Source: an uncultured Acidobacteriota bacterium (GTDB taxonomy: Bacteria; Acidobacteriota; Blastocatellia; RBC074). Taken from it: 64,000 bases of DNA. The notes below the pieces were generated by a model. It was not told where the DNA came from, made no database searches, and worked only from the letters and a program-made list of their open reading frames with translations. Where the stretch lies: NCBI GenBank assembly GCA_963699175.1, contig OY969418.1:1666791-1730790 (forward strand), written 5' to 3'. The position numbers and the translations under genes were made by a program. Below, piece by piece: positions 44,799-56,998 of this stretch; the first letter of the stretch is position 1; every line of letters begins with the position of its first letter.

Positions 44799-45200
44799 TC
44801 AAATAAACAGTTCAGATGAGACGTGAAAGAAGTCAGCCAGTTTCTTGGCTTGCGCCTTGCTGATGGCGCGCACCCCGTTGACGGCTTCAGCCGCCCGTTC
44901 GCCTGAACCGAATAACGGCGCCAAGACTTCCTGCTGCAACCCGCGGGCTTCCAGCAAATGCTGTATGACTTGATGCGGCGCTGTTGGTTCAATCGGATAG
45001 TGTTCTTCTTCGTAGTCCTGAATCAGTTTCACGAGCAGATCGAAGAGCTTTACTTCTTCCGGCGACAGGTCGGCTTCACGGCTCATCATTAGCTCAACGA
45101 CCGCCAGCAAGCGTTCATATTCAGCTTCGCTCTCGATGATTTGGGGAAGCGTCGCAGCCAACCAGTCCGCATACTTCTTCGGGCTATATTTAGCAGTCAT
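44799..45200 (-). CDS. HigA-family / Xre-type HTH protein (COG5499-like antitoxin)
   Basis: 133 aa. The C-terminal HTH (LQQEVLAPLFGSGERAAEAVNGVRAISKAQAKKLADFFHVSSELFI) is typical of HigA-like antitoxins. It lies directly downstream of a 460-aa nuclease-like protein instead of a HigB. Confidence 0.6.
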   Translation of the reverse strand: MTAKYSPKKYADWLAATLPQIIESEAEYERLLAVVELMMSREADLSPEEVKLFDLLVKLIQDYEEEHYPIEPTAPHQVIQHLLEARGLQQEVLAPLFGSGERAAEAVNGVRAISKAQAKKLADFFHVSSELFI

Positions 45201-45270
45201 CTTTCCACCTCTCTCGGTCGTATTCGGCGTGGGTTAAAACGTATTTGATGAAGATCGTTTGACGCAAAAT

Positions 45271-46653
45271 CTACCGCAACACCCGCTCCCGCATCCGCCA
45301 CAAACTCTGCGCCGTGAAAGGCTCGCCGTCAAAGACGATCTGCTTCATCCCTTTGCCCTGCCGCTGCAAATACTCCGTCACGTTCATCCACTGGATGCGC
45401 CCGTCGCCGTCACGCACAACTAACATCACGGGGTGAACGCTGGCCCGCCACTGCTCAGCATAATCCGCTTTGGCGATGGTAAAGACCCACCGTTCGCCCT
45501 GCTTGGACAGCGTGAAGTATTCGTCCGATTTGAATTGCAAGTAGACGCGCCGACCGCTCGGTTCGCCTTGGTCGTTCTTGAATTCGATCTCACCGTCAAT
45601 GCCCCAATCGGCCCCGATGGTTGGCCTGAAAATCTGCCCGGCCTCTGCGGCAATAGCCAGGGCGTGCGCTACCAGCAGCAATTCACGGCTCTGGTTATCA
45701 ATCGTGAGGCGGGACTTCTCCTCCAAGCCGCGCACCTCTTGCTGGATTCGCTCCGAAGCAAATTTCTCTTCAATCAGGTCGCGCAGCACAATCGGCTTAC
45801 TACAAAACTGGCAAGGAATTTTCTTCTTGCCGCTCTCAACCGCTTTCTGAATCGCGCGGGTGCTTTCCACCGGCTCACCGCATTTGGGATATGGGCAAAC
45901 GTAGTGGCGCAGGCGGACGACGTGCGGATCCTTCGCCTTCAAATGGTCGTGGATGTAGCGAATGAAAGTTACCTTGGTATCTTCGTTCGCGTGCGGCTCG
46001 CAATAAACCGTGAGTTCGGCGGCTCCTTCGGCCTTCTTGGTCATTTTGAAACCGACGCGCCGGTTGGCATGCGTTCTGAAATCAGCCGCGAAGCGCCAGA
46101 GCCACTTCTCGCCCGTCTCGAAAGCAGCGGTGTGCCGCAGTTTCACCACCAGCGTCGCGTAAATCTCGTCGAGCGGCCCGCTGAATTGATACGTCACCAG
46201 CGCCGACGGATGATCCGGCTGATCGGGCCGTTCGCGCTTGAAGTAGGAGGGAAATACCAGCAACGTGCCAGCCTCAGTATGTTCGCGCAGGCAGAGGCCA
46301 TGATCCACGAGAATTTGGTGCATGGCCCGCAAGACGATCTGCTCTTCGTCGGCTGGCAACCGCTCCATTTTCTCTTTGTCAGCTTTCTGATAGTCGAGGT
46401 CTCCGACCAGCACGCGCTCTTCAGAAATACAGCCGATCTCATCCGTGTGAGCGCGCACGGAACGAATCACTGCCGCCGCGTAAGCGTTGATGCGTTCGGG
46501 CTGAAGCAGTACGAAGTCACCGAACTCCAATTGCCAGACGATGCCTGGCCCGGCCAGCAAGCCCACCACCGCCCGCAACTCTTCCGGCGTGAAGCTTTCG
46601 CCCGGCAGCCGCATTTCAAGCTGCTGCTTCAACTCGCCCATCCGCAGCAACAC
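45271..46653 (-). CDS. 460-aa protein: unknown N-terminal region, C4 zinc ribbon, C-terminal DUF4365-like PD-(D/E)xK nuclease-fold domain
   Basis: CPYPKCGEP...CQFCSKP zinc ribbon. C-terminal GADWGIDGEIEF...RRVYLQFKSDE resembles the DUF4365 signature (D..IDG.IE ... QxK). The start is GTG at 46653 or ATG at 46641. No P-loop seen. Confidence 0.5.
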   Translation of the reverse strand: MLLRMGELKQQLEMRLPGESFTPEELRAVVGLLAGPGIVWQLEFGDFVLLQPERINAYAAAVIRSVRAHTDEIGCISEERVLVGDLDYQKADKEKMERLPADEEQIVLRAMHQILVDHGLCLREHTEAGTLLVFPSYFKRERPDQPDHPSALVTYQFSGPLDEIYATLVVKLRHTAAFETGEKWLWRFAADFRTHANRRVGFKMTKKAEGAAELTVYCEPHANEDTKVTFIRYIHDHLKAKDPHVVRLRHYVCPYPKCGEPVESTRAIQKAVESGKKKIPCQFCSKPIVLRDLIEEKFASERIQQEVRGLEEKSRLTIDNQSRELLLVAHALAIAAEAGQIFRPTIGADWGIDGEIEFKNDQGEPSGRRVYLQFKSDEYFTLSKQGERWVFTIAKADYAEQWRASVHPVMLVVRDGDGRIQWMNVTEYLQRQGKGMKQIVFDGEPFTAQSLWRMRERVLR

Positions 46654-46785
46654 GCGGCCTTCGTCCCTGAGCTTGACGATCTCTTCCTTGATATGTCACA
46701 TGTCCGCGCGGCAGGCGACAAGGAACAATCTACTCATTGTGTCCAATTTGATTTTCAGGACTTCCGATTCGGAGATAAGTTCAAC

Positions 46786-49134
46786 ATGTCTATCAAACGC
46801 CCAGTACCGCATTCTTGGCCAGTGAATGTGCTGTTTGCTTTGTTTTTTGCATCTCTGAGCTTGTCGAGTTGTTCAGAGCAGCCGCGCCAAGGACAGTCAT
46901 CATCTGCCTCACCGAGTCCCCGCATTGAATTCATTTGGCAAACTAAACACGGCAATACTGTTAATTCAGTTGCTTTCTCACCCGATGGTAAAACGATTGT
47001 AAGCGGTAGTGATGACGGAACAGTCGCACTACTTGATGCAGACAAGGGAAAACTCAATCGGACTCTCACGCATAACAATGTTGTTAACTCAGTCGCTTTC
47101 TCACTTGATGGAGGCCTAATTGCGAGTGGCAGCAGTGACAAAACTGTCAAGATTTGGGATCCACATACAGCAGAGGTAAAGCGGATTCTGACTCACGATG
47201 ATGTTGTAACAGCAATTGCTTTCTCGCCGGATGGGAAGACGTTGGCAAGTGGAAACGACATTGACGAGACAGTTGTCGAAACAGTGAAATTATGGGACGT
47301 AGACACAGGTAAACAAAAACGAAGTTTAGTAGAAGATGATCTTAGCCGTGTACGACATTCTTCTGTAGTGAATTCGATTGCTTTTTCACCAGACGGGAAA
47401 TTGCTAGCACGAGCATTTACTCAAAACTGGATAACACTTTGGGAGGCACAAACAGGAAGGCTGGGGCAGCGGCTCGTGCGCCATGGCGCTACAGTGAATT
47501 CACTGCGTTTTTCCCGAGACAGCAAAATGATTGCGAGCGGAGGGAAAGACAGTTCAGTGATTCTGTGGGATGCGCAAACAGGAGAAGTGAAACGAGTTCT
47601 TAGACCGCGCAGGGCACACTGGGTTACTTCAGTTGCTTTCTCACCAGATAGCAAGACGGTGATGAGCGGAGGGCGTGATAAAACAATTAAGTTTTATGAT
47701 GTTGGAACAGGGGAGCTAAAAATGACCCTAACCAGCAACAATGCTGTAACCTCAATTGCGGTTTCGCCTGATGGGCAGGCTTTGGTAAGTGGCGATGAAG
47801 ACGGAATGGTAACGCTGTGGAATGCACGCATTGAGACACGACTAGCGACTTTGACCGGCAGCAAAAGCCCTGAAGTGACCGAAGGTTTTTGGGAGAGCGG
47901 CAGACAATGGATTCAAGCCCATAGAACATTTGCTATTGTTGCTACCCTTATTCTCCTTTGGTTAATTTCTGAAGCCATAGTTAGAAGACGGCGCTCATCA
48001 AATGCTAAGGTGAAGTCCCAAGAGCGTGATGCTTCGCCACACAATTTGAAGCAAACCTTTGATAAGGCTCGCGAAATCCAGAAATTAATTCGTAAGCTCT
48101 TGTCTGAAACCTCCTACGTAACTCCTGAGATCGTCTTGCGGGGCCACGATAAGGCGGTATATTCAGTTATTTTTTCCCCGGATAGCAAGGTAATTGCAAC
48201 TGCAGGTGATGACGGAAAAGTAATTCTATGGGATGTAGCAACAAAAGAGAAAAAATCCGTCTTGGATCATGGCCGGGGAGTTTTAGCACTTGCATTTTCA
48301 CGCGATGGGAAAGTCATAGCCAGTGGATCTATTGATGGCTTGGTGATCGTGTGGAATGCGATAACAGGTGAAGAAATACAGCCGTTCGACACGCAAACGG
48401 AACGGATTCTTGAAAAAGGAGCGAGAAAAACATGGCTGCAGGATGACGATATTCATAGGTGGAATAATGTTACCTCGCTTGCCTTCTCCTCAGACGGAAA
48501 AACGATTGCGAGCTGCGTCAATGGCGGGACGGTGAAGCTATGGGATTTGCAAACGATAAAGGCAAAAAAGACATTAGCTACGAAGACGCCGTTGTTCACG
48601 GTGGCATTCTCCCCTGAGGGAAGATATTTGGTTAGCGGGGGACACGAAATATCATCAAGGGAGGATGACATAGCATTGATATTGTGGGAGGTGCAAACCG
48701 GGGAAGAAAAATGCTCATTAAACGTGCGGAACGCCGGTGGCGTATTTTCCGCAGCGTTTTCGCCAGATGGAAGGGTGTTGGCGCTTGGCAATGACAATGA
48801 TTATGGCAGCGACCAAGCCAATGATGATAATGATGGCGACGCATCAGTTAGGTTGTATTCTCTGCAAAATGGGACTCTTACACAAAAGATGACGCTGAAC
48901 GGCCATAGCCAACCCGTGCGATCAATCGCCTTCTCACCAAATGGTGAGGTAATAGCTAGTGGCAGCGCTGATTGCACAGTGACATTGTGGGGAGTACAGG
49001 GGGTAAAGTGGCAACAGACGCTAAAACATGACGACACAATTACTTCTGTCACATTCTCACCAGACGGAAGTAGACTAGCTTGCGCAAGCGTAAATAAAAC
49101 AGTGAAAGTATGGCGAGTTCAGAGTAAGACCTAA
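46786..49134 (+). CDS. WD40-repeat lipoprotein with two 7-blade propellers separated by a TM helix
   Basis: MSIKRPVPHSWPVNVLFALFFASLSLSSC (lipobox LSSC). 7 WD40 blades (FSPDGKT...GSDDGTV...). TM TFAIVATLILLWLISEAIV plus RRRRSS. 7 more WD40 blades. GC (~45%) is far below that of its neighbours. The track's 45433..49134 ORF is an artefactual upstream extension. Confidence 0.75.
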   Translation: MSIKRPVPHSWPVNVLFALFFASLSLSSCSEQPRQGQSSSASPSPRIEFIWQTKHGNTVNSVAFSPDGKTIVSGSDDGTVALLDADKGKLNRTLTHNNVVNSVAFSLDGGLIASGSSDKTVKIWDPHTAEVKRILTHDDVVTAIAFSPDGKTLASGNDIDETVVETVKLWDVDTGKQKRSLVEDDLSRVRHSSVVNSIAFSPDGKLLARAFTQNWITLWEAQTGRLGQRLVRHGATVNSLRFSRDSKMIASGGKDSSVILWDAQTGEVKRVLRPRRAHWVTSVAFSPDSKTVMSGGRDKTIKFYDVGTGELKMTLTSNNAVTSIAVSPDGQALVSGDEDGMVTLWNARIETRLATLTGSKSPEVTEGFWESGRQWIQAHRTFAIVATLILLWLISEAIVRRRRSSNAKVKSQERDASPHNLKQTFDKAREIQKLIRKLLSETSYVTPEIVLRGHDKAVYSVIFSPDSKVIATAGDDGKVILWDVATKEKKSVLDHGRGVLALAFSRDGKVIASGSIDGLVIVWNAITGEEIQPFDTQTERILEKGARKTWLQDDDIHRWNNVTSLAFSSDGKTIASCVNGGTVKLWDLQTIKAKKTLATKTPLFTVAFSPEGRYLVSGGHEISSREDDIALILWEVQTGEEKCSLNVRNAGGVFSAAFSPDGRVLALGNDNDYGSDQANDDNDGDASVRLYSLQNGTLTQKMTLNGHSQPVRSIAFSPNGEVIASGSADCTVTLWGVQGVKWQQTLKHDDTITSVTFSPDGSRLACASVNKTVKVWRVQSKT

Positions 49135-49164
49135 GATCATAGACGACGCGCCGACCATCCGGCG

Positions 49165-49665
49165 TCACCGCCACTCCATACACACTGTCTGTATGCCATC
49201 TGAAACCTCGCTTGATCGCGCTTGGTCTTTCCGCTCGATCACACGCTCAGTCTCGGCTGCCGCCGGTCGGCAAGCGGCCAACAACCGGGCATACTGCTCC
49301 TCGGAGCGCTGCCGCCAATCCACATACGCGAATTGCTTGAGCGTATACGGGATCTCGGCGTCATCCAGGCGCACGGGGATGAAGCGGCCTTGCTGATTGG
49401 TCGGGTCGTTGAAAAGCGCCGACTGATGCTCGAACCTCACCCATTCCGACGCCGAGGCGTGCTGCGACATCATCAGCACGAGCGTCCGCGCCTGCTCCAA
49501 GCCCTCATGAATCCTGCGCAGGATCGCATCGCCCGGCTTGATCTCCGCTTCGTCGAACCACACGCGCAGCCCGTCCCGGCGCAACCGCTCGGCCAACTCG
49601 CGCACCGCCGGTTTGTCTTGGCTGCTGTGGCTGATGAAGACATCGTATTTGAATTGTTCGGCCAT
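49165..49665 (-). CDS. stand-alone TIR-domain protein
   Basis: MAEQFKYDVFISHSSQDKPAVRELAERLRRDGLRVWFDEAEIKPGD... is the canonical TIR N-terminus. A conserved Glu lies in SASEWVRFEHQ. 166 aa. Confidence 0.8.
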   Translation of the reverse strand: MAEQFKYDVFISHSSQDKPAVRELAERLRRDGLRVWFDEAEIKPGDAILRRIHEGLEQARTLVLMMSQHASASEWVRFEHQSALFNDPTNQQGRFIPVRLDDAEIPYTLKQFAYVDWRQRSEEQYARLLAACRPAAAETERVIERKDQARSSEVSDGIQTVCMEWR

Positions 49666-49752
49666 AGGCTTTGTCAGGTTGGTTTGGCAGTAAATTGAAG
49701 CCGGTGCTTATTTATCTCCGAGACTAGCAACACTTTGAACTGGCGCAGCCTG

Positions 49753-49894
49753 TGGAGTGCGGCGGCTTGACGCCGCTTTGGTATCACCTCAAGGTGCTCC
49801 ACCAGGCGGGCAAGGCTGGCCACGCCGTCTTGGCTTTCCGCTGGCGTCTGCAGCCAAAGCTGATACCAAAGCGGCGTCAAGCCGCCGCACTCCA
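49753..49894. repeat. perfect 34-bp inverted repeat with 74-nt spacer
   Basis: TGGAGTGCGGCGGCTTGACGCCGCTTTGGTATCA ... TGATACCAAAGCGGCGTCAAGCCGCCGCACTCCA, exact reverse complements. It lies between the TIR gene start and the mazF stop. Confidence 0.8.
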
Positions 49895-49934
49895 AAGACG
49901 TTGCGCGTCGAAATAAGCACAGGCTTCAGTAAAT

Positions 49935-50282
49935 TCACAGGCCGAGACAGTAGCGAACCGCGTCCTCGACCTGATTCAAAATTGCGCCGGAGATTTTTCC
50001 AGCAGGCGTCGGCGGAAAACGTGAAGCATCGAGCGAGCGGACTTGGAAACACAGAAAGACAGTTTCCAGCGGCAGCCCGCTGTCGGCAGCAACAACGCGA
50101 ACATTGGTCGGGTAGTTCTGCGGTACGTTCTGGCCTTTTGTCCCTACGACGACTGTAACGACCAGCGGCAGCCGATTGATGGCATCAATCGAAAGCACCA
50201 ACACCGGGCGCTGGCCTGCTTGTTCGCGCCCTTGTGCCGGGTTCAAGTTGACGAAGTAAATCTCGCCGCGCTGAATGGCCAT
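49935..50282 (-). CDS. mazF: MazF/PemK-family type II toxin (mRNA interferase)
   Basis: MAIQRGEIYFVNLNPAQGREQAGQRPVLVLSIDAINR is the PemK/MazF signature. 115 aa. Confidence 0.75.
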   Translation of the reverse strand: MAIQRGEIYFVNLNPAQGREQAGQRPVLVLSIDAINRLPLVVTVVVGTKGQNVPQNYPTNVRVVAADSGLPLETVFLCFQVRSLDASRFPPTPAGKISGAILNQVEDAVRYCLGL

Positions 50283-50285
50283 CAG

Positions 50286-50525
50286 CTATCCTCTTTCTTC
50301 GGTGAGCAGCCCGTCCGTTTCCGTCCCGGCAAATTCAGCTTCGATTTCCCGCAATTCGCGTTGAATATCCGGGTCGGCGGCCATCGCGGCCAACTGCTCT
50401 TCAATGCGCTGTGGCTGGTCGGCGCGTCCGAGTAGATCAGCAACGCGCTTGATGATTTGCAATTGTTCGTTAGGCGAAAGCTGTTGCACCTGGCTCATAA
50501 TCAAATCGAGTTGATTGGCAACCAC
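50286..50525 (-). CDS. type II antitoxin (TIGR02574-like addiction-module component)
   Basis: 79 aa. LSPNEQLQIIKRVADLL motif. GTG start with RBS AAGGAGG. The gene lies 3 nt upstream of mazF. Confidence 0.55.
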   Translation of the reverse strand: MVANQLDLIMSQVQQLSPNEQLQIIKRVADLLGRADQPQRIEEQLAAMAADPDIQRELREIEAEFAGTETDGLLTEERG

Positions 50526-50580
50526 CGTTTTACCTCCTTGTTGGCAGCATCCGGATTATACGCAACCGTAGCGCAATTCA

Positions 50581-50690
50581 GCCAGCCGCGCCGGGCAGTT
50601 CCAAGGCAACCGCTCGGCCAACTCGCGCACCGCCGGTTTGGCTTGGCTGCTGTGGCTGATGAAAACATCGTATTTGAATTGTTCGGCCAT
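50581..50690 (-). pseudogene. duplicated 5' fragment of the TIR gene
   Basis: 50606-50693 matches 49581-49668 (88 bp, 2 mismatches). It encodes MAEQFKYDVFISHSSQAKPAVRELAERL and then diverges to a stop. Confidence 0.75.
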
Positions 50691-50768
50691 AGGTTTCCCC
50701 CTCGACGCTAGCAATCAATCCCTCAGCCTGCGGCAGCAGGCGACAGCATAAAGCCTGGGGTGGAGCGC

Positions 50769-50802
50769 GGCAGCGCGGAACCCCAGGATAGCGGATGATG
50801 AA
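50769..50802. repeat. REP-like palindrome 1
   Basis: CCTGGGGTGGAGCGCGGCAGCGCGGAACCCCAGG. Confidence 0.7.
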
Positions 50803-50908
50803 TTACGCAAGCCCGTGAAACGGGCGGCAGCTAAGCGTTGCTAAGCGCGCCGTATTGTACACGCTGTCGCTCGCTCCGCGAGCTTGTGTGTTCGTGTGCG
50901 TGCGTTTC

Positions 50909-50948
50909 CTGGGGTTTCGCTCCGCTGACGCTGTGCTCCACCCCAGGC
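50909..50948. repeat. REP-like palindrome 2
   Basis: CCTGGGGTTTCGCTCCGCTGACGCTGTGCTCCACCCCAGG. Confidence 0.7.
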
Positions 50949-50995
50949 TTTAGGCTGGCACCCGCTTCGCGGGTTGAGAGCGCGGCACTTAGGCG

Positions 50996-51417
50996 TCAAA
51001 TGTGCCGCTCGTCATATTCGATGCCATTGGCTTTCAAAAATCCGATGAATTCGTCACGAAACGATTGTTTGCGATGATGCGCTTGTTGGCGCGCAATGTA
51101 TTCCTGCACAGCTTGTACATTGGATTGGCTAACGGTGAATGCGCCATAACCACGTTGCCACGCGAAATCTTGCGCGTCGGGAAAGATGTCGTGCATCCAG
51201 CCGCTCGCATTCGCCTTGAGATCGCGCAGCACATCCGACACTGACTTATCCGGTCGCAGCTTTGCCAGCAGATGAACGTGATCTTCCGTGCCGTTGATGC
51301 CGAGCGACATTCCGCCCAGTCCGCGTAGAGTCTGGCTTGATAAGCCTCGGTGATAATCGGTTGGCGCTCTTTGGTCGAGAAGATGATGTGATAGAGCAGA
51401 TTGGCGTAAGACGATGA
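50996..51417 (-). pseudogene. tnpA: IS200/IS605-family TnpA (REP-associated tyrosine transposase-like), frameshifted
   Basis: N-terminal part MSSSYANLLYHIIFSTKERQPIITEAYQARLYA with RBS AGGAGGAAG. The frame shifts near 51310. The C-terminal part GGMSLGINGTEDHVHLLAKLRP...FAWQRGYGAFTVSQ... is in another frame. HxH and GY motifs are present. Confidence 0.7.
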
Positions 51418-51478
51418 CATGGCTTCCTCCTGGTGGCTGTCGCCTGTGAGCGCGGGCTGGTGTTGTTTGTTACGTAGG

Positions 51479-51510
51479 CCGGGGTGAAACGCGGCAGCGC
51501 GGGACCCCAG
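51479..51510. repeat. REP-like palindrome 3
   Basis: CCGGGGTGAAACGCGGCAGCGCGGGACCCCAGG. Confidence 0.7.
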
Positions 51511-51617
51511 GAAACGCACGCCCGCAAACACGCAAGCTCGCGGGGCGAGCGACAGCTTGATAGAAAACAACTGGCTGTCGCCCGTTTCACGGGCTTACAC
51601 AATTTACCATCCGCCAA

Positions 51618-51652
51618 CCCTGGGGTTGCGCGCTATCGCGCTTCACCCCAGG
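51618..51652. repeat. REP-like palindrome 4
   Basis: CCCTGGGGTTGCGCGCTATCGCGCTTCACCCCAGG. Confidence 0.7.
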
Positions 51653-51688
51653 CTTTACGATTTCGCCTGCTGTCGCAGGCTGGATCAG

Positions 51689-54755: not shown

Positions 54756-55697
54756 ATGTTGCAAACCCCTGTCGCCCTCATCATCTTCAATCGCCCACAA
54801 ACTACGCAGCGCGTGTTCGCCGAGATTGCGCGCGCCAAGCCGCGCCACTTGTTGATTGTCGCTGATGGCCCACGCACTTCGGAAGAAGCAGAGCGGTGCG
54901 CAGCCGCACGCGCAATCATCAACCAGGTTGATTGGGATTGCGAGTTGTTGACCGATCTGGCCGACAACAACCTCGGCTGCAAGCAACGCATGTTTTCAGG
55001 ATTGAACCTCGCTTTCACGCACTACGAAGATGTCATCATTCTGGAAGACGACTGTTTGCCGCAGCCAAGCTTTTTCCGCTTTTGCGCAGAGCTGTTGGAA
55101 CGTTACCGCCACGAGCCGCGCGTGATGGCCATCAGCGGCAACAATTTTCTCCCGCCCAGGCTACAACGGCGCATGCGCGACAGTTACTATTTTTCGCAGA
55201 TCCCGCACATCTGGGGTTGGGCCTCGTGGCGGCGCGTGTGGGAGCTTTACGATTGGGAGATCAAACGCTGGCCAGCGTTGCGTGCAACTGATTGGCTGGC
55301 GCGGCGTTCGCGCAATCCACACTTCAAAACCTACTGGGAGCACGTCTTTGACGAAAGCTTTCGCCGCGAAACCAACGCCTGGGATTTTCAACTGACCTTC
55401 ACTTGCCTGCTGCACGAGGGCTTGTCGGCTATGCCCCGCGTCAATCTGGTCTCGAACATCGGCTTTGGTGATGACGCGACACACACTAAGGACACGCAGA
55501 GCCTTTTTGCCAACTGGCCGGTGGGCGAGTTGCAATTCCCGCTCAACCATCCAACAAAGTTGGAACACAACGTCGCCGCCGATGAATTTACCTTTCGCCA
55601 GAATTTTCTGGGCCAGTCGGAGCCACCGCCTCTTTGGCAACGTGCTTTGAACAAAGCGCGCCGTCTACTTCAAACCTCTTCAGCCAAAATCTCCTGA
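54756..55697 (+). CDS. GT-A fold glycosyltransferase-like protein
   Basis: N-terminal VALIIFNRP...LLIVADGP and DxD-type motif VIILEDDCLP. 313 aa. The 3' end overlaps the convergent GT4 gene by 28 bp. Confidence 0.45.
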   Translation: MLQTPVALIIFNRPQTTQRVFAEIARAKPRHLLIVADGPRTSEEAERCAAARAIINQVDWDCELLTDLADNNLGCKQRMFSGLNLAFTHYEDVIILEDDCLPQPSFFRFCAELLERYRHEPRVMAISGNNFLPPRLQRRMRDSYYFSQIPHIWGWASWRRVWELYDWEIKRWPALRATDWLARRSRNPHFKTYWEHVFDESFRRETNAWDFQLTFTCLLHEGLSAMPRVNLVSNIGFGDDATHTKDTQSLFANWPVGELQFPLNHPTKLEHNVAADEFTFRQNFLGQSEPPPLWQRALNKARRLLQTSSAKIS

Positions 55698-56998
55698 TAC
55701 CAGGCGAGATAGGCATCCACTTGCCGGTCTAAGCTGAAATGCTCGCGTGCATGAGCTGCCGCCGCATGTCCTAGCCGCACACGCAAAGCTTCATCGTTGA
55801 AGAGCAACTCCAACCGCTGCGCCATTGCTGCGCCGTCGCCTACTGGCACGAGGAAGCCTGTCTCAGCTTCTACTATCTGTTCGGGAATGCCGCCGACCGC
55901 TGTGGCGACGACCGGCGTGCCGCAAGCCAAAGCTTCGAGCACTGTGTTGGGGAACGTATCGGCGCGCGCCGCGTGCACGTAAACATCGGCGGCTTGATAA
56001 AAGCGCGCCACGCGTGCCGGGTCGCGTTCGAAATCGAGAAAGCGCAGCGTGACCGCGCCCAACCGCTCTTCCTGCGCAACCTCACCCAAACAAATCAGCA
56101 AGACCTCGCGCTGCAACGAACGCGCCGCCAACTGCCGCACAGCGGCTTCCAGCGTCGCGTAATCTTTGAATGGATTGCGGCGCGTGCTGCTGCCGGCAAA
56201 GAGCGCGATGTCGGCAGCAAGTGGCAAGCCTAATTCCTGCCGCGCAGCGGTTTTGTCAAAGGGCTTGAACTGCGCGAGCGGCACGCCGTTCGGGATATGG
56301 CGCGCTTCAATGATTGCCGGTTGCAAGATAGATGCGCGCGCTTCATCCAACAGCCAGCGACTCGGCGCAGCCACATAAAATCGGCAGCGTTGATAGAGCG
56401 CGCGTTTGCGCCGCCAGTTCTGCGCCGTCGTGTCGCGTCGCAGCGGCGGATGGACTTCCAGATCAGGGCAATGCTCGCAACCGTGCAGCCAGCGCTCGCT
56501 GCCAAATGAGTGTGCGCAATGGCCGGTGAAGAGCCATTCGTCGTGCAGCGTGATGATAATGGGAAGTTGCCGACTGAGTTTGGGCAAGACGCGCAAGTCA
56601 AAATACTCGCCGTGCAGATTGTGCGTGTGCAGCAACTGTGGCGGCTGCGGTGTCAGTTCAAGCAAGCGCCGCGAAGCCGGGAAATCGAAATTCTCCAAGC
56701 CGCGCTGCCGCTCCCACCACGCGTGCGGTTCGACCACATCGGCCAGCCAGCCCGCCAACACAGGCGCGAAGCGTATGCGCTGCTGACAAAGCGCCAGTTG
56801 CTGTCGCCGCCAAAAACGTGTCCAAGCCGGACGTTGCGCCGTGTGATTCAACTCGAACACGTTCACGTCGTCGCGCGTCTTTTGCCCGACTGCTAGAAAG
56901 GATTCGTGGCCGCGCTGTGCGTAGGCTTTGAAAAGATCGTAGGCGACCTTTTCCGCGCCACCATATTGATCGGCGGTGCTGAGTTGCAAGATACGCAT
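55670..56998 (-). CDS. glycosyltransferase family 4 (GT-B)
   Basis: MRILQLSTADQYGGAEKVAYDL N-terminus. C-terminal motif FPNTVLEALACGTPVVATAVGGIPE. Confidence 0.8.
   Translation of the reverse strand: MRILQLSTADQYGGAEKVAYDLFKAYAQRGHESFLAVGQKTRDDVNVFELNHTAQRPAWTRFWRRQQLALCQQRIRFAPVLAGWLADVVEPHAWWERQRGLENFDFPASRRLLELTPQPPQLLHTHNLHGEYFDLRVLPKLSRQLPIIITLHDEWLFTGHCAHSFGSERWLHGCEHCPDLEVHPPLRRDTTAQNWRRKRALYQRCRFYVAAPSRWLLDEARASILQPAIIEARHIPNGVPLAQFKPFDKTAARQELGLPLAADIALFAGSSTRRNPFKDYATLEAAVRQLAARSLQREVLLICLGEVAQEERLGAVTLRFLDFERDPARVARFYQAADVYVHAARADTFPNTVLEALACGTPVVATAVGGIPEQIVEAETGFLVPVGDGAAMAQRLELLFNDEALRVRLGHAAAAHAREHFSLDRQVDAYLAWYQEILAEEV

What the first reader, a model, noticed from the sequence alone, without database searches (positions are those of the whole stretch)
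44799..51660. Defense-island-like patch: DUF4365 nuclease-like + WD40 + TIR + MazF TA + IS200/RAYT remnant, with no NTPase
Within 7 kb lie effector-type domains (TIR, PD-(D/E)xK), a sensor-type repeat protein (WD40), a canonical mazF TA pair, a duplicated gene fragment, a perfect inverted repeat and a decayed transposase with REP pairs. Upstream is a giant adhesin and downstream are ordinary hydrolases. TIR, WD40 and nuclease are the modules of fused anti-phage STAND or Thoeris-like systems. Here they are split into separate small genes with no P-loop NTPase and no SIR2/SLOG partner. This may be a disassembled or novel split system, or a mobile-element graveyard.
Basis: inference. Interest (0 to 1): 0.65.

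Follow-up and report, generated by a model that had tools for sequence, protein, structure and literature searches.

The report
Wreck of a ROCO-type defence gene
The separate TIR and nuclease genes are the two ends of one large TIR-WD40-GTPase-nuclease gene, from a widespread and uncharacterised family that is probably anti-phage; its middle, GTPase included, was replaced by an unrelated foreign WD40 membrane-protein gene, so the patch is a gene wreck among mobile elements, not a new split defence system.

Summary

The window keeps only the two ends of such a gene, on the minus strand:
- **5' end:** TIR to the start of blade 1, 49672→49141, with a 1-nt frameshift.
- **3' end:** end of Roc to DUF4365, 46692→45271.

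About 1.44 kb (WD40 blades plus Roc) has been replaced by a 2.45-kb low-GC block (GC3 0.43 against 0.73-0.78). This block carries an orphan WD40 lipoprotein gene on the opposite strand. A mazEF + inverted-repeat block sits between two copies of the TIR 5' end, and the upstream RAYT is frameshifted.

Verdict: a mobile-element graveyard holding a pseudogenised ROCO-type gene. The intact family is the more interesting lead.

The parts
44799..45200 (-). Orphan HigA-like HTH gene (133 aa). It is not part of the ROCO gene.
   Evidence: Pfam HTH_3 6e-4 on residues 81-131. PADLOC PD-Lambda-2_B N-terminal region 6.6e-19, a domain-level hit. No toxin ORF upstream. No homologue near any of 85 family loci.
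45271..46692 (-). 3' remnant of a TIR-WD40-Roc-COR-DUF4365 gene. It comprises the last residues after Roc, the COR domain (~res 1-270 of the ORF), a 4-Cys zinc ribbon (C253, C258, C281, C284) and the DUF4365 PD-(D/E)xK nuclease (res 328-457; Q373/K375). The open frame is 45271-46653; family homology runs on to 46692, past an upstream in-frame stop.
46693..49140 (+). Foreign 2.45-kb replacement block. It carries an orphan WD40 gene (46786-49134, 782 aa): lipobox signal peptide (LSSC), a 7-blade propeller, a TM helix followed by RRRR, and a second propeller.
   Evidence: GC 0.47 and GC3 0.43, against 0.73-0.78 for its neighbours. Pfam WD40 2.5e-113. Only itself at 100% identity; the next best homologue is <=39% identical. 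~30% identity to the family's WD40 blades. Its own blades are 35% aa / 48% nt identical to each other. It occupies the place of L014 2491-3929.
49141..49672 (-). 5' remnant of the ROCO-type gene: TIR domain, linker and the start of WD40 blade 1. A 1-nt deletion at ~49205/49206 shifts the frame, so the ORF (49165-49665, 166 aa) ends early. The blade-1 sequence HTDSVYGVAVTPDGRRVV is readable in the -1 frame down to 49142.
   Evidence: 85% nt identity to L014 1960-2490. TIR 82-85% aa identical to the N-termini of L014, L019 and L049, and 50% to P0087. Frames; alignment. The putative catalytic Glu (WVRFE, E79) is retained (read from the sequence).
49696..49928 (.). REPIN-like palindromic element: two inverted copies of GAGTGCGGCGGCTTGACGCCGCTTTGG inside 40-nt arms, plus 18-nt outer arms.
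   Evidence: Inverted repeats I4 and I7. 2 matches in the window against 0 expected. Absent from 85 related loci.
49935..50525 (-). Type II toxin-antitoxin pair: MazF/PemK toxin 49935-50282 and an unclassified 79-aa antitoxin 50286-50525.
   Evidence: PemK 3.3e-23. NCBIfam ChpB/MazF 5e-11, below cut-off. The antitoxin has no family hit. GC3 0.59-0.64. Never adjacent to family genes.
50606..50696 (-). Duplicate of the TIR gene's first ~28 codons; this copy carries the ancestral 5' junction.
   Evidence: 97% identical to 49581-49671. Window 50978->50606 is colinear with L014 1685-2051, which runs RAYT, REP, then TIR start. The 49672 copy has homology only from 7 nt before the ATG.
50724..51682 (-). 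RAYT/IS200-like element: a Y1 transposase pseudogene (50996-51420) between long inverted REP-like arms.
   Evidence: Y1_Tnp 2.6e-17. Compared with the intact 146-aa homologue in L014 (81% identical), ~8 codons are lost with a frameshift. Arms I1-I3 are 80-88% complementary. Three hairpin motifs against 0 expected.

Best explanation
The patch is the wreck of one large defence-type gene, or possibly two tandem ones, of a widespread and uncharacterised ROCO family.

**Intact family members.** They are single polypeptides of about 1100 aa (range 914-1438): an N-terminal TIR domain, usually seven near-identical WD40 blades with a few variable positions, a Roc (Ras-like) GTPase, a COR dimerisation domain, a 4-Cys zinc ribbon and a C-terminal DUF4365 PD-(D/E)xK nuclease.

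**Inferred mode of action.** By analogy with NLR/STAND receptors and Roco GTPases, the WD40 propeller would sense an invader molecule. The Roc-COR module would act as a nucleotide-dependent switch or oligomeriser. TIR (NAD+ cleavage) and DUF4365 (non-specific DNA cleavage, as in short-Argonaute systems) would be abortive-infection effectors.

**What the window shows.**
- The segment from WD40 blade 1 to the end of Roc (~1.44 kb) has been replaced by a horizontally acquired 2.45-kb block. The block carries an unrelated WD40 lipoprotein gene in the opposite orientation.
- The TIR remnant has an extra 1-nt frameshift.
- A mazEF + REPIN-like block lies between two copies of the TIR 5' end.
- The upstream RAYT is frameshifted.

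With no sensor and no GTPase switch, the ROCO gene is almost certainly non-functional. mazEF is probably the only working module.

**Shown:** colinearity, breakpoints, domain identities, compositional foreignness of the block, and intact relatives. **Inferred:** the defence function and mechanism of the intact family, and the non-function of the remnants.
For: 1. Homologues of the 460-aa ORF cover all of it but carry Roc/Ras and WD40 (one also TIR) upstream. Exhaustive phmmer finds 416 cluster representatives at E<=1e-30. The best are 1100-1450 aa, with the match at their C-terminus.
2. Of 80 GTDB genome loci, 49 have TIR, Roc and COR-DUF4365 in one open frame, 11 are disrupted, and 13 are cut by contig ends.
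3. DNA colinearity with L014: window 49672->49143 = L014 1960-2490 (85%), and window 46691->45277 = L014 3930-5368 (69%). L014 2491-3929 has no counterpart. Breakpoints are at 49141 and 46692.
4. No Roc-like sequence occurs anywhere in the window.
6. The replacement block is compositionally foreign and unrelated to the family's WD40 blades.
7. The blade-1 remnant is readable in a shifted frame after a 1-nt deletion.
8. RAYT-REP-TIR synteny with L014 shows the 50606-50696 copy is the original 5' end.
9. Other decayed copies show the family often breaks: L019 internal deletion, P0087/L002, L003 frameshift, L005 nonsense codon, L001 IS upstream, L088.
10. The DUF4365 QxK residues match the active site mutated in TmuRE (PMC10810196).
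Against: - The two remnants have different nearest relatives. TIR is 82-85% identical to the L014/L019/L049 clade. COR-DUF4365 is 75-76% identical to L006/L007 but only 67-71% to the L014 clade. The ancestor was therefore a recombinant, or the ends come from two genes.
- The 460-codon 3' remnant has no internal stop and keeps every family-invariant residue. The TIR ORF keeps its catalytic-type Glu. So the event is recent, or the pieces retain some use.
- No repeats or recombinase signatures were seen at the junctions, so the replacement mechanism is unknown.
- The source genome could not be retrieved. No intact allele in a sister strain was seen.
- The defence role of the intact family rests on domain logic only. 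PADLOC has no full-length model and I found no paper on this architecture.
Confidence: 0.85

Rival explanations
1. The two remnants come from two different tandem paralogues of the family, an L014-type gene upstream and an L006-type gene downstream. A single event removed everything from blade 1 of the first gene to the end of Roc of the second and put the WD40 lipoprotein block there. This is still a wreck, but of two genes.
For: The TIR part groups with L014/L019/L049 (82-85%). The COR-DUF4365 part groups with L006/L007 (75-76%) and is only 67-71% identical to the L014 clade, which is itself coherent in both parts. Genomes can hold more than one copy: L011 and L063 come from one MAG, as do L019 and L068.
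Against: Same strand, correct order and complementary breakpoints fit one gene equally well. Near-identical WD40 blades (77-88% nt) are obvious recombination substrates that could make a mosaic single gene. No tandem pair was seen among the 85 loci.
Confidence: 0.25
2. The pieces form a working, rewired split system. A free TIR protein and a free COR-DUF4365 nuclease would act as effectors, controlled by the membrane-spanning WD40 protein as an envelope sensor, without a GTPase.
For: The ORFs of 166, 782 and 460 aa are open. Catalytic-type residues are retained. ~420-470-aa COR-DUF4365-only ORFs recur in databases.
Against: - The arrangement is found nowhere else; the WD40 protein has no relative above 39% identity.
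- The other COR-DUF4365-only ORFs I inspected are remnants of frameshifts, deletions or truncations. They lie next to TIR-WD40 pieces or unrelated genes.
- The TIR ORF ends through a frameshift inside family sequence.
- The 460-aa frame starts at a GTG 13 codons inside residual homology, after a stop.
- The WD40 gene is convergent with TIR and divergent from the nuclease gene.
Confidence: 0.05
3. The low-GC WD40 block is an assembly chimera, and the real genome has an intact ROCO gene.
For: There is a sharp GC step at both junctions. Repeat-rich WD40 regions are misassembled in many metagenome contigs.
Against: The TIR and WD40 proteins are both recorded on one 9,536,885-bp contig from NCBI/ENA, which points to a finished chromosome. 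A chimera would not explain the 1-nt frameshift, the TIR duplication, or a complete gene with signal peptide and stop fitting exactly between the breakpoints.
Confidence: 0.03

Closest known systems
Prokaryotic Roco proteins (Chlorobium tepidum Roco, Methanosarcina barkeri Roco2) and LRRK1/LRRK2
   Different: The repeat domain is WD40, not LRR. TIR and DUF4365 effector domains sit at the two ends, and there is no kinase. Pfam COR models do not detect the domain. The window copy lacks Roc altogether.
NLR-like / STAND anti-phage receptors (Avs, bNACHT, TIR-NLR) and the NTP-dependent conflict systems of Kaur et al. 2020 (PMC7159879)
   Same: The same tripartite logic of effector + NTPase switch + repeat sensor, with a TIR effector. 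The repeats are near-identical with a few variable positions, as recalled for fungal HET-E/NWD WD40 NLRs (from memory, not checked here).
   Different: The switch is a Ras-like Roc GTPase with COR, not a STAND ATPase. PADLOC gives only domain-level hits to the intact proteins. Kaur et al. mention the AP-GTPase (Roc) only in vWA ternary systems.
Short-Argonaute nuclease systems (DUF4365-APAZ; TmuRE-Ago / SPARDA)
   Same: A DUF4365 PD-(D/E)xK domain with the QxK active-site motif: Q373/K375 here, Q62/K64 in TmuRE (PMC10810196). PADLOC Aga_REase hits at 4e-12.
   Different: No APAZ domain and no Argonaute partner. Here the nuclease is fused to COR.
Thoeris (ThsB TIR + ThsA)
   Same: The TIR domain is related to ThsB models (PADLOC 5.6e-12; Pfam ThsB_TIR 3e-7).
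   Different: No ThsA (SIR2/SLOG, Macro or TM) gene is present. The TIR is the N-terminus of a ROCO protein.
MazEF type II toxin-antitoxin and RAYT/REPIN elements
   Same: A PemK/MazF toxin with an abutting small upstream gene. A Y1 HUH transposase flanked by inverted REP-like hairpins.
   Different: The antitoxin belongs to no known MazE family. The RAYT is frameshifted and so is a pseudogene.

Membership tests
ROCO proteins (Roc-COR tandem) | Roc (Ras-like) GTPase domain immediately N-terminal to COR | tested here: not met
   There is no Roc-like sequence in the region or anywhere in the 64-kb window. It is present in relatives: PF08477/PF00071; Ras 3e-21 on L006; P-loop GDSGVGKS and DFAGQ read in L006.
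ROCO proteins (Roc-COR tandem) | COR domain fold | tested here: met
TIR-WD40-Roc-COR-DUF4365 family (uncharacterised; defined here) | Colinear homology at both ends (TIR; COR-Zn ribbon-DUF4365) | tested here: met
   85% and 69-77% nt identity to L014 and L006. All invariant residues are retained.
TIR-WD40-Roc-COR-DUF4365 family (uncharacterised; defined here) | One uninterrupted ORF of ~900-1450 aa | tested here: not met
   Of 80 loci, 49 are intact. The window gene is split, with 2.45 kb of foreign DNA between the ends and a frameshift.
TIR-WD40-Roc-COR-DUF4365 family (uncharacterised; defined here) | Near-identical 42-aa WD40 blades with variable positions 4, 5, 7 and 23 | tested here: not met
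   Only the first ~18 residues of blade 1 remain. Blades of the neighbouring WD40 gene are 35% aa identical to each other, against 66-77% in the family.
Thoeris | ThsB-type TIR protein | tested here: inconclusive
   Domain-level hits only: PADLOC ThsB 5.6e-12 and Pfam ThsB_TIR 3.2e-7. The best PADLOC hit is PDC-S66.
Thoeris | Adjacent ThsA (SIR2/SLOG or Macro/TM) partner | tested here: not met
   None among the nine ORFs scanned or the flanking genes.
STAND / Avs / NLR-like defence | STAND P-loop NTPase (NACHT, NB-ARC) | tested here: not met
   There are no such hits in the window region. Relatives use a Roc GTPase instead.
Short pAgo nuclease systems (SPARDA-like) | DUF4365 fused to APAZ, with an adjacent short Argonaute | tested here: not met
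   PADLOC Aga_REase models match only their DUF4365 part, residues 22-125 of 429. There is no pAgo gene.
MazEF type II TA | PemK/MazF-fold toxin | tested here: met
   PF02452 3.3e-23 over 107 of 109 positions.
MazEF type II TA | Antitoxin of the MazE/AbrB (or other known) family directly upstream | tested here: inconclusive
   A 79-aa ORF abuts the toxin, but it has no Pfam, NCBIfam or PADLOC hit.
RAYT / REPIN | Intact Y1 (HUH) transposase | tested here: not met
   Y1_Tnp 2.6e-17 on the C-terminal part only. ~8 codons are lost with a frameshift, compared with the intact L014 homologue.
RAYT / REPIN | Gene flanked by inverted REP hairpins that recur in the genome | tested here: inconclusive
   Flanking inverted arms are present. 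Only 3 hairpin copies occur in the window, all at the element. The rest of the genome was not available.

The most novel reading that the evidence does not exclude
The remnants derive from a widespread family that has not been experimentally described: prokaryotic ROCO immune receptors of the form TIR, hypervariable WD40 propeller, Roc-COR GTPase, zinc ribbon, DUF4365 nuclease.

- It comprises 416 clusters at 50% identity with E<=1e-30.
- It occurs in Acidobacteriota, Planctomycetota, Nostoc, Verrucomicrobiota and Methanothrix.
- An LRRK2-type GTPase switch would couple pathogen sensing to two abortive-infection effectors.
- The family is frequently pseudogenised; the window is one natural knockout.

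A much less likely reading (about 5%) is that the window's three ORFs still cooperate as a GTPase-less split system.
Probability: 0.5. Interest if true: 0.6.

Novelty: new member of a known kind. Interest (0 to 1): 0.3.

Why it matters
For this window, the result removes an apparent NTPase-less split TIR/WD40/nuclease system. The domains are neighbours because they were once one gene. The WD40 gene is an unrelated insertion.

More broadly, it points to a well-populated but unstudied family. In it the Roc-COR module, the core of human LRRK2, has no established function in prokaryotes. Here it sits in a textbook immune-receptor architecture, with TIR and nuclease effectors and a WD40 sensor whose blades vary at a few positions.

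Testing an intact member would address what bacterial Roco proteins do. It would also show whether a Ras-like GTPase can replace the STAND ATPase in NLR-like defence.

Tried and rejected
- **Exact look-ups of the source contig.** Look-ups for the window's TIR and WD40 proteins found nothing. The cluster look-up gave no accession. The organism is therefore only inferred to be Blastocatellia-like, from best hits.
- **Inversion of the gene's own WD40 region.** I considered that the + strand WD40 gene was an inverted piece of the ancestral gene. I rejected this on GC3, blade divergence, the signal peptide and TM helix, the absence of any Roc remnant, and <=31% identity to the family's blades.
- **Family normally split into two genes.** The TIR search returned only <=285-aa proteins, which suggested a natural split into TIR-WD40 and WD40-Roc-COR-DUF4365 genes. 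I rejected this: 49 genome loci have one frame. The short database entries are contig ends, frameshifts or nonsense mutations.
- **Synteny.** No synteny of the HTH gene, mazEF, M14 peptidase or adhesin with family loci.
- **REPIN motif.** The 27-nt motif is absent from the 85 loci.
- **Promoter/terminator scan.** Nothing above the shuffled expectation.
- **Literature.** Searches for this architecture found nothing specific.
Full report
**Observation.**
- ORF 45271-46653(-), 460 aa, has DUF4365 at residues 328-457 (Pfam 1e-16).
- An ATG-started ORF 46786-49134(+), 782 aa, is packed with WD40 repeats (2.5e-113).
- 49165-49665(-), 166 aa, is a TIR_2 domain (1.8e-31).
- 49935-50282(-) is a PemK/MazF toxin (3.3e-23), with a 79-aa ORF abutting it upstream.
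- 50996-51310(-) matches the C-terminal two-thirds of the Y1/IS200 transposase model (2.6e-17).
- A 91-nt copy (97%) of the TIR gene's 5' end lies at 50606-50696.
- A 40-nt inverted repeat (95% complementary, with perfect 27-nt cores) lies at 49750-49897.
- Long inverted arms flank the transposase remnant.
- PADLOC gives only domain-level hits and no complete system.
- The flanks are an Ig/cadherin-repeat giant protein and an M14 peptidase.
- No NTPase is present.

**The 460-aa ORF is a fragment.**
All 120 listed homologues (49-75% identical) cover most or all of it. Most are 600-800 aa and carry Roc/Ras GTPase domains and often WD40 repeats upstream. One (P0087) starts with a TIR domain that is 50% identical to the window's TIR protein.

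An exhaustive phmmer search finds 2134 cluster representatives, 416 of them at E<=1e-30. The best are 1100-1450 aa, with the match at their C-terminus.

A scan of GTDB species genomes returned 80 loci, which sort as follows:
- 49 have TIR, Roc and COR-DUF4365 in a single open frame. The median length is 1107 aa from the TIR start, range 914-1438.
- 11 are disrupted.
- 7 have no TIR upstream.
- 13 run off a contig end.

Hosts include Blastocatellia/Pyrinomonadaceae, Bryobacterales, Planctomycetota, Verrucomicrobiota, Nostoc and Methanothrix.

**What the middle part is.**

Q373 and K375 correspond to the QxK active site that was mutated in the DUF4365 nuclease TmuRE of a short-Argonaute system. 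That enzyme degrades DNA non-specifically once activated (PMC10810196).

The family is therefore a genuine ROCO family with the architecture TIR - WD40 - Roc - COR - Zn ribbon - DUF4365.

**What happened in the window.**
DNA alignment of the window's minus strand with the intact gene of L014 shows three things:
- Window 49672->49143 equals L014 1960-2490 at 85% identity. This runs from 7 nt before the ATG, through TIR and the linker, into WD40 blade 1.
- Window 46691->45277 equals L014 3930-5368 at 69% identity (77% to L006).
- The 1439 nt between these in L014, which encode the rest of the seven blades and the whole Roc domain, have no counterpart.

Full-length relatives find no Roc-like sequence anywhere in the 64-kb window. 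Fine alignments place the breakpoints at 49141 and 46692. They also show a 1-nt deletion at about 49205/49206.

That deletion explains why the TIR ORF ends at 49165. The blade-1 sequence (F-R-W-HTDSVYGVAVTPDGRRVV) remains readable in the neighbouring frame. On the other side, family homology (IKEEIVKLRDEGRVLL) continues 13 codons upstream of the GTG start, to just after an in-frame stop.

**The WD40 gene is an intruder, not the sensor.**
The 2448 nt between the breakpoints carry the + strand WD40 gene, with 93 nt upstream of it and 6 nt downstream.
- Its GC is 0.47 and its GC3 0.43. The TIR remnant has GC3 0.78, COR-DUF4365 0.73, and the neighbouring genes I measured outside the patch (M14 peptidase, giant Ig/cadherin protein, two glycosyltransferase-region ORFs) 0.68-0.77.
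- It has a lipobox (LSSC) signal peptide and an internal TM helix followed by RRRR. That predicts one propeller on each side of the membrane.
- Apart from itself, its best database relatives are generic WD40 proteins at <=39% identity. It is ~30% identical to the family's blades.
- Its blades are 35% aa / 48% nt identical to one another. Blades within a family protein are 66-77% aa / 77-88% nt identical, with variation concentrated at positions 4, 5, 7 and 23 of the 42-aa unit.

For these reasons I rejected an inversion of the gene's own WD40 region.

**The other elements.**
L014 has an intact 146-aa RAYT directly upstream of its ROCO gene. The window's copy is 81% identical over its C-terminal part but has lost ~8 codons with a frameshift.

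Window 50978->50606 is colinear with L014's RAYT-REP-TIR-start segment. The 50606-50696 fragment is therefore the original 5' end. The 934-nt block holding mazEF and the REPIN-like palindrome lies between two copies of a 91-nt stretch.

In the 85 family loci, tblastn with the window's proteins finds nothing for mazEF, the HigA-like HTH gene (PADLOC PD-Lambda-2_B N-terminus, domain level), the giant Ig/cadherin protein or the 313-aa ORF at 54756-55697. The M14 peptidase gives only a ~25%-identical match in one locus, L021. The antitoxin has no recognised family.

**Caveat: the two remnants are a mosaic.**
The TIR remnant is closest to the L014/L019/L049 clade (82-85% aa). The COR-DUF4365 remnant is closest to L006/L007 (75-76%) and only 67-71% identical to the L014 clade. 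Either the ancestral gene was a recombinant, which is plausible given the near-identical blades, or the two ends come from two tandem paralogues. In both cases the locus is a wreck.

**Decay is common in this family.**
- L019 has TIR plus two blades, then an out-of-frame deletion into COR.
- P0087/L002 lacks most blades and most of Roc.
- L003 has a frameshift and L005 a stop codon inside a blade.
- L001 has an IS immediately upstream.
- L086 and L087 are split near the Roc-COR boundary, and L088 is a lone 3' piece next to an RHS gene.

The COR-DUF4365-only ORFs I inspected are all remnants of this kind, so I read the others in the databases the same way and not as a separate two-gene design.

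**Mechanism.**
Shown: the architecture, the conserved P-loop (GDSGVGKS) and DFAGQ motifs in relatives, the COR fold, the nuclease motif, and the variable-position blades.

Inferred from established knowledge of NLR/STAND receptors, Roco GTPases, TIR NADases and DUF4365 nucleases:
- The propeller binds an invader-derived ligand.
- Roc-COR switches or oligomerises.
- TIR depletes NAD+ and DUF4365 cuts DNA, giving abortive infection.

The window copy has neither sensor nor switch and should be inactive. Both remnants keep all invariant residues, so the loss is probably recent. I give a residual role about 5% probability.

**Novelty.**
PADLOC 2.0 has no full-length model for the intact proteins. 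Full-text searches found no paper on this architecture. Kaur et al. 2020 mention the Roc-type AP-GTPase only within vWA ternary systems.

The patch itself is ordinary: a pseudogenised member of a known kind, amid a toxin-antitoxin pair and REP/RAYT debris. The intact family is a worthwhile lead for defence-system discovery and for the open question of what prokaryotic Roco proteins do.

Noticed in passing
window 46786-49134 (+): An orphan, low-GC 782-aa protein: lipobox signal peptide, 7-blade WD40 propeller, TM helix followed by RRRR, then a second propeller. That predicts a propeller on each side of the membrane. No homologue above 39% identity among 5.8 billion proteins, apart from its own record.
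   Followed up: partly
L006 8513-9394, L014 2435-3316, L007, L068 (family WD40 regions): Blades within one family protein are 66-77% aa and 77-88% nt identical. Variation is concentrated at positions 4, 5, 7 and 23 of the 42-aa unit. The TIR-to-Roc spacer is quantised (about 110, 195, 240, 280, 320 and 620 aa), which implies gain and loss of whole blades (2 to 14). This is the pattern expected of a diversifying sensor.
   Followed up: partly
L003 9237-12187; L005 9254-12352; L019 9237-11335; L001 3269-7048; L086-L088: Family genes are often broken: a frameshift or a TAG stop inside a blade, internal deletions, an IS upstream, and splits at the Roc-COR boundary. 11 of the 80 GTDB loci are disrupted. 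Some breaks may be assembly errors in the repeat region.
   Followed up: partly
L031 7574-7874: Two out-of-frame TIR fragments (75% and 62% identical to the window TIR) lie just upstream of an intact family gene. This parallels the window's duplicated TIR 5' end.
   Followed up: no
L014 1112-1651 and window 50996-51420; L073 11911-12216: A RAYT/IS200-like gene sits directly upstream of the ROCO gene both in L014 (intact, 146 aa) and in the window (frameshifted). A 44%-identical one lies downstream of the family gene in L073.
   Followed up: partly
window 49696-49928: A 233-bp palindromic element with two perfect inverted copies of GAGTGCGGCGGCTTGACGCCGCTTTGG, each itself a 6-bp GC hairpin followed by a T-rich stretch. 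It differs from the REP hairpins flanking the RAYT and is absent from the 85 related loci.
   Followed up: partly
window 44799-45200 (-): A HigA-like HTH gene without a toxin partner. It matches the N-terminal 117 residues of the 402-residue PADLOC model PD-Lambda-2_B at 6.6e-19.
   Followed up: no
L012, L014, L049, L065 (record titles): Contigs carrying close relatives of this Acidobacteria-type gene are labelled Enterobacteriaceae, Heliomicrobium or Bifidobacterium MAGs. These are probably binning or labelling errors.
   Followed up: no
window 55670-56998 (-): A group-1 glycosyltransferase (GT4) with a secondary Pfam hit to GT4-conflict (PF20706, 3.7e-8).
   Followed up: no
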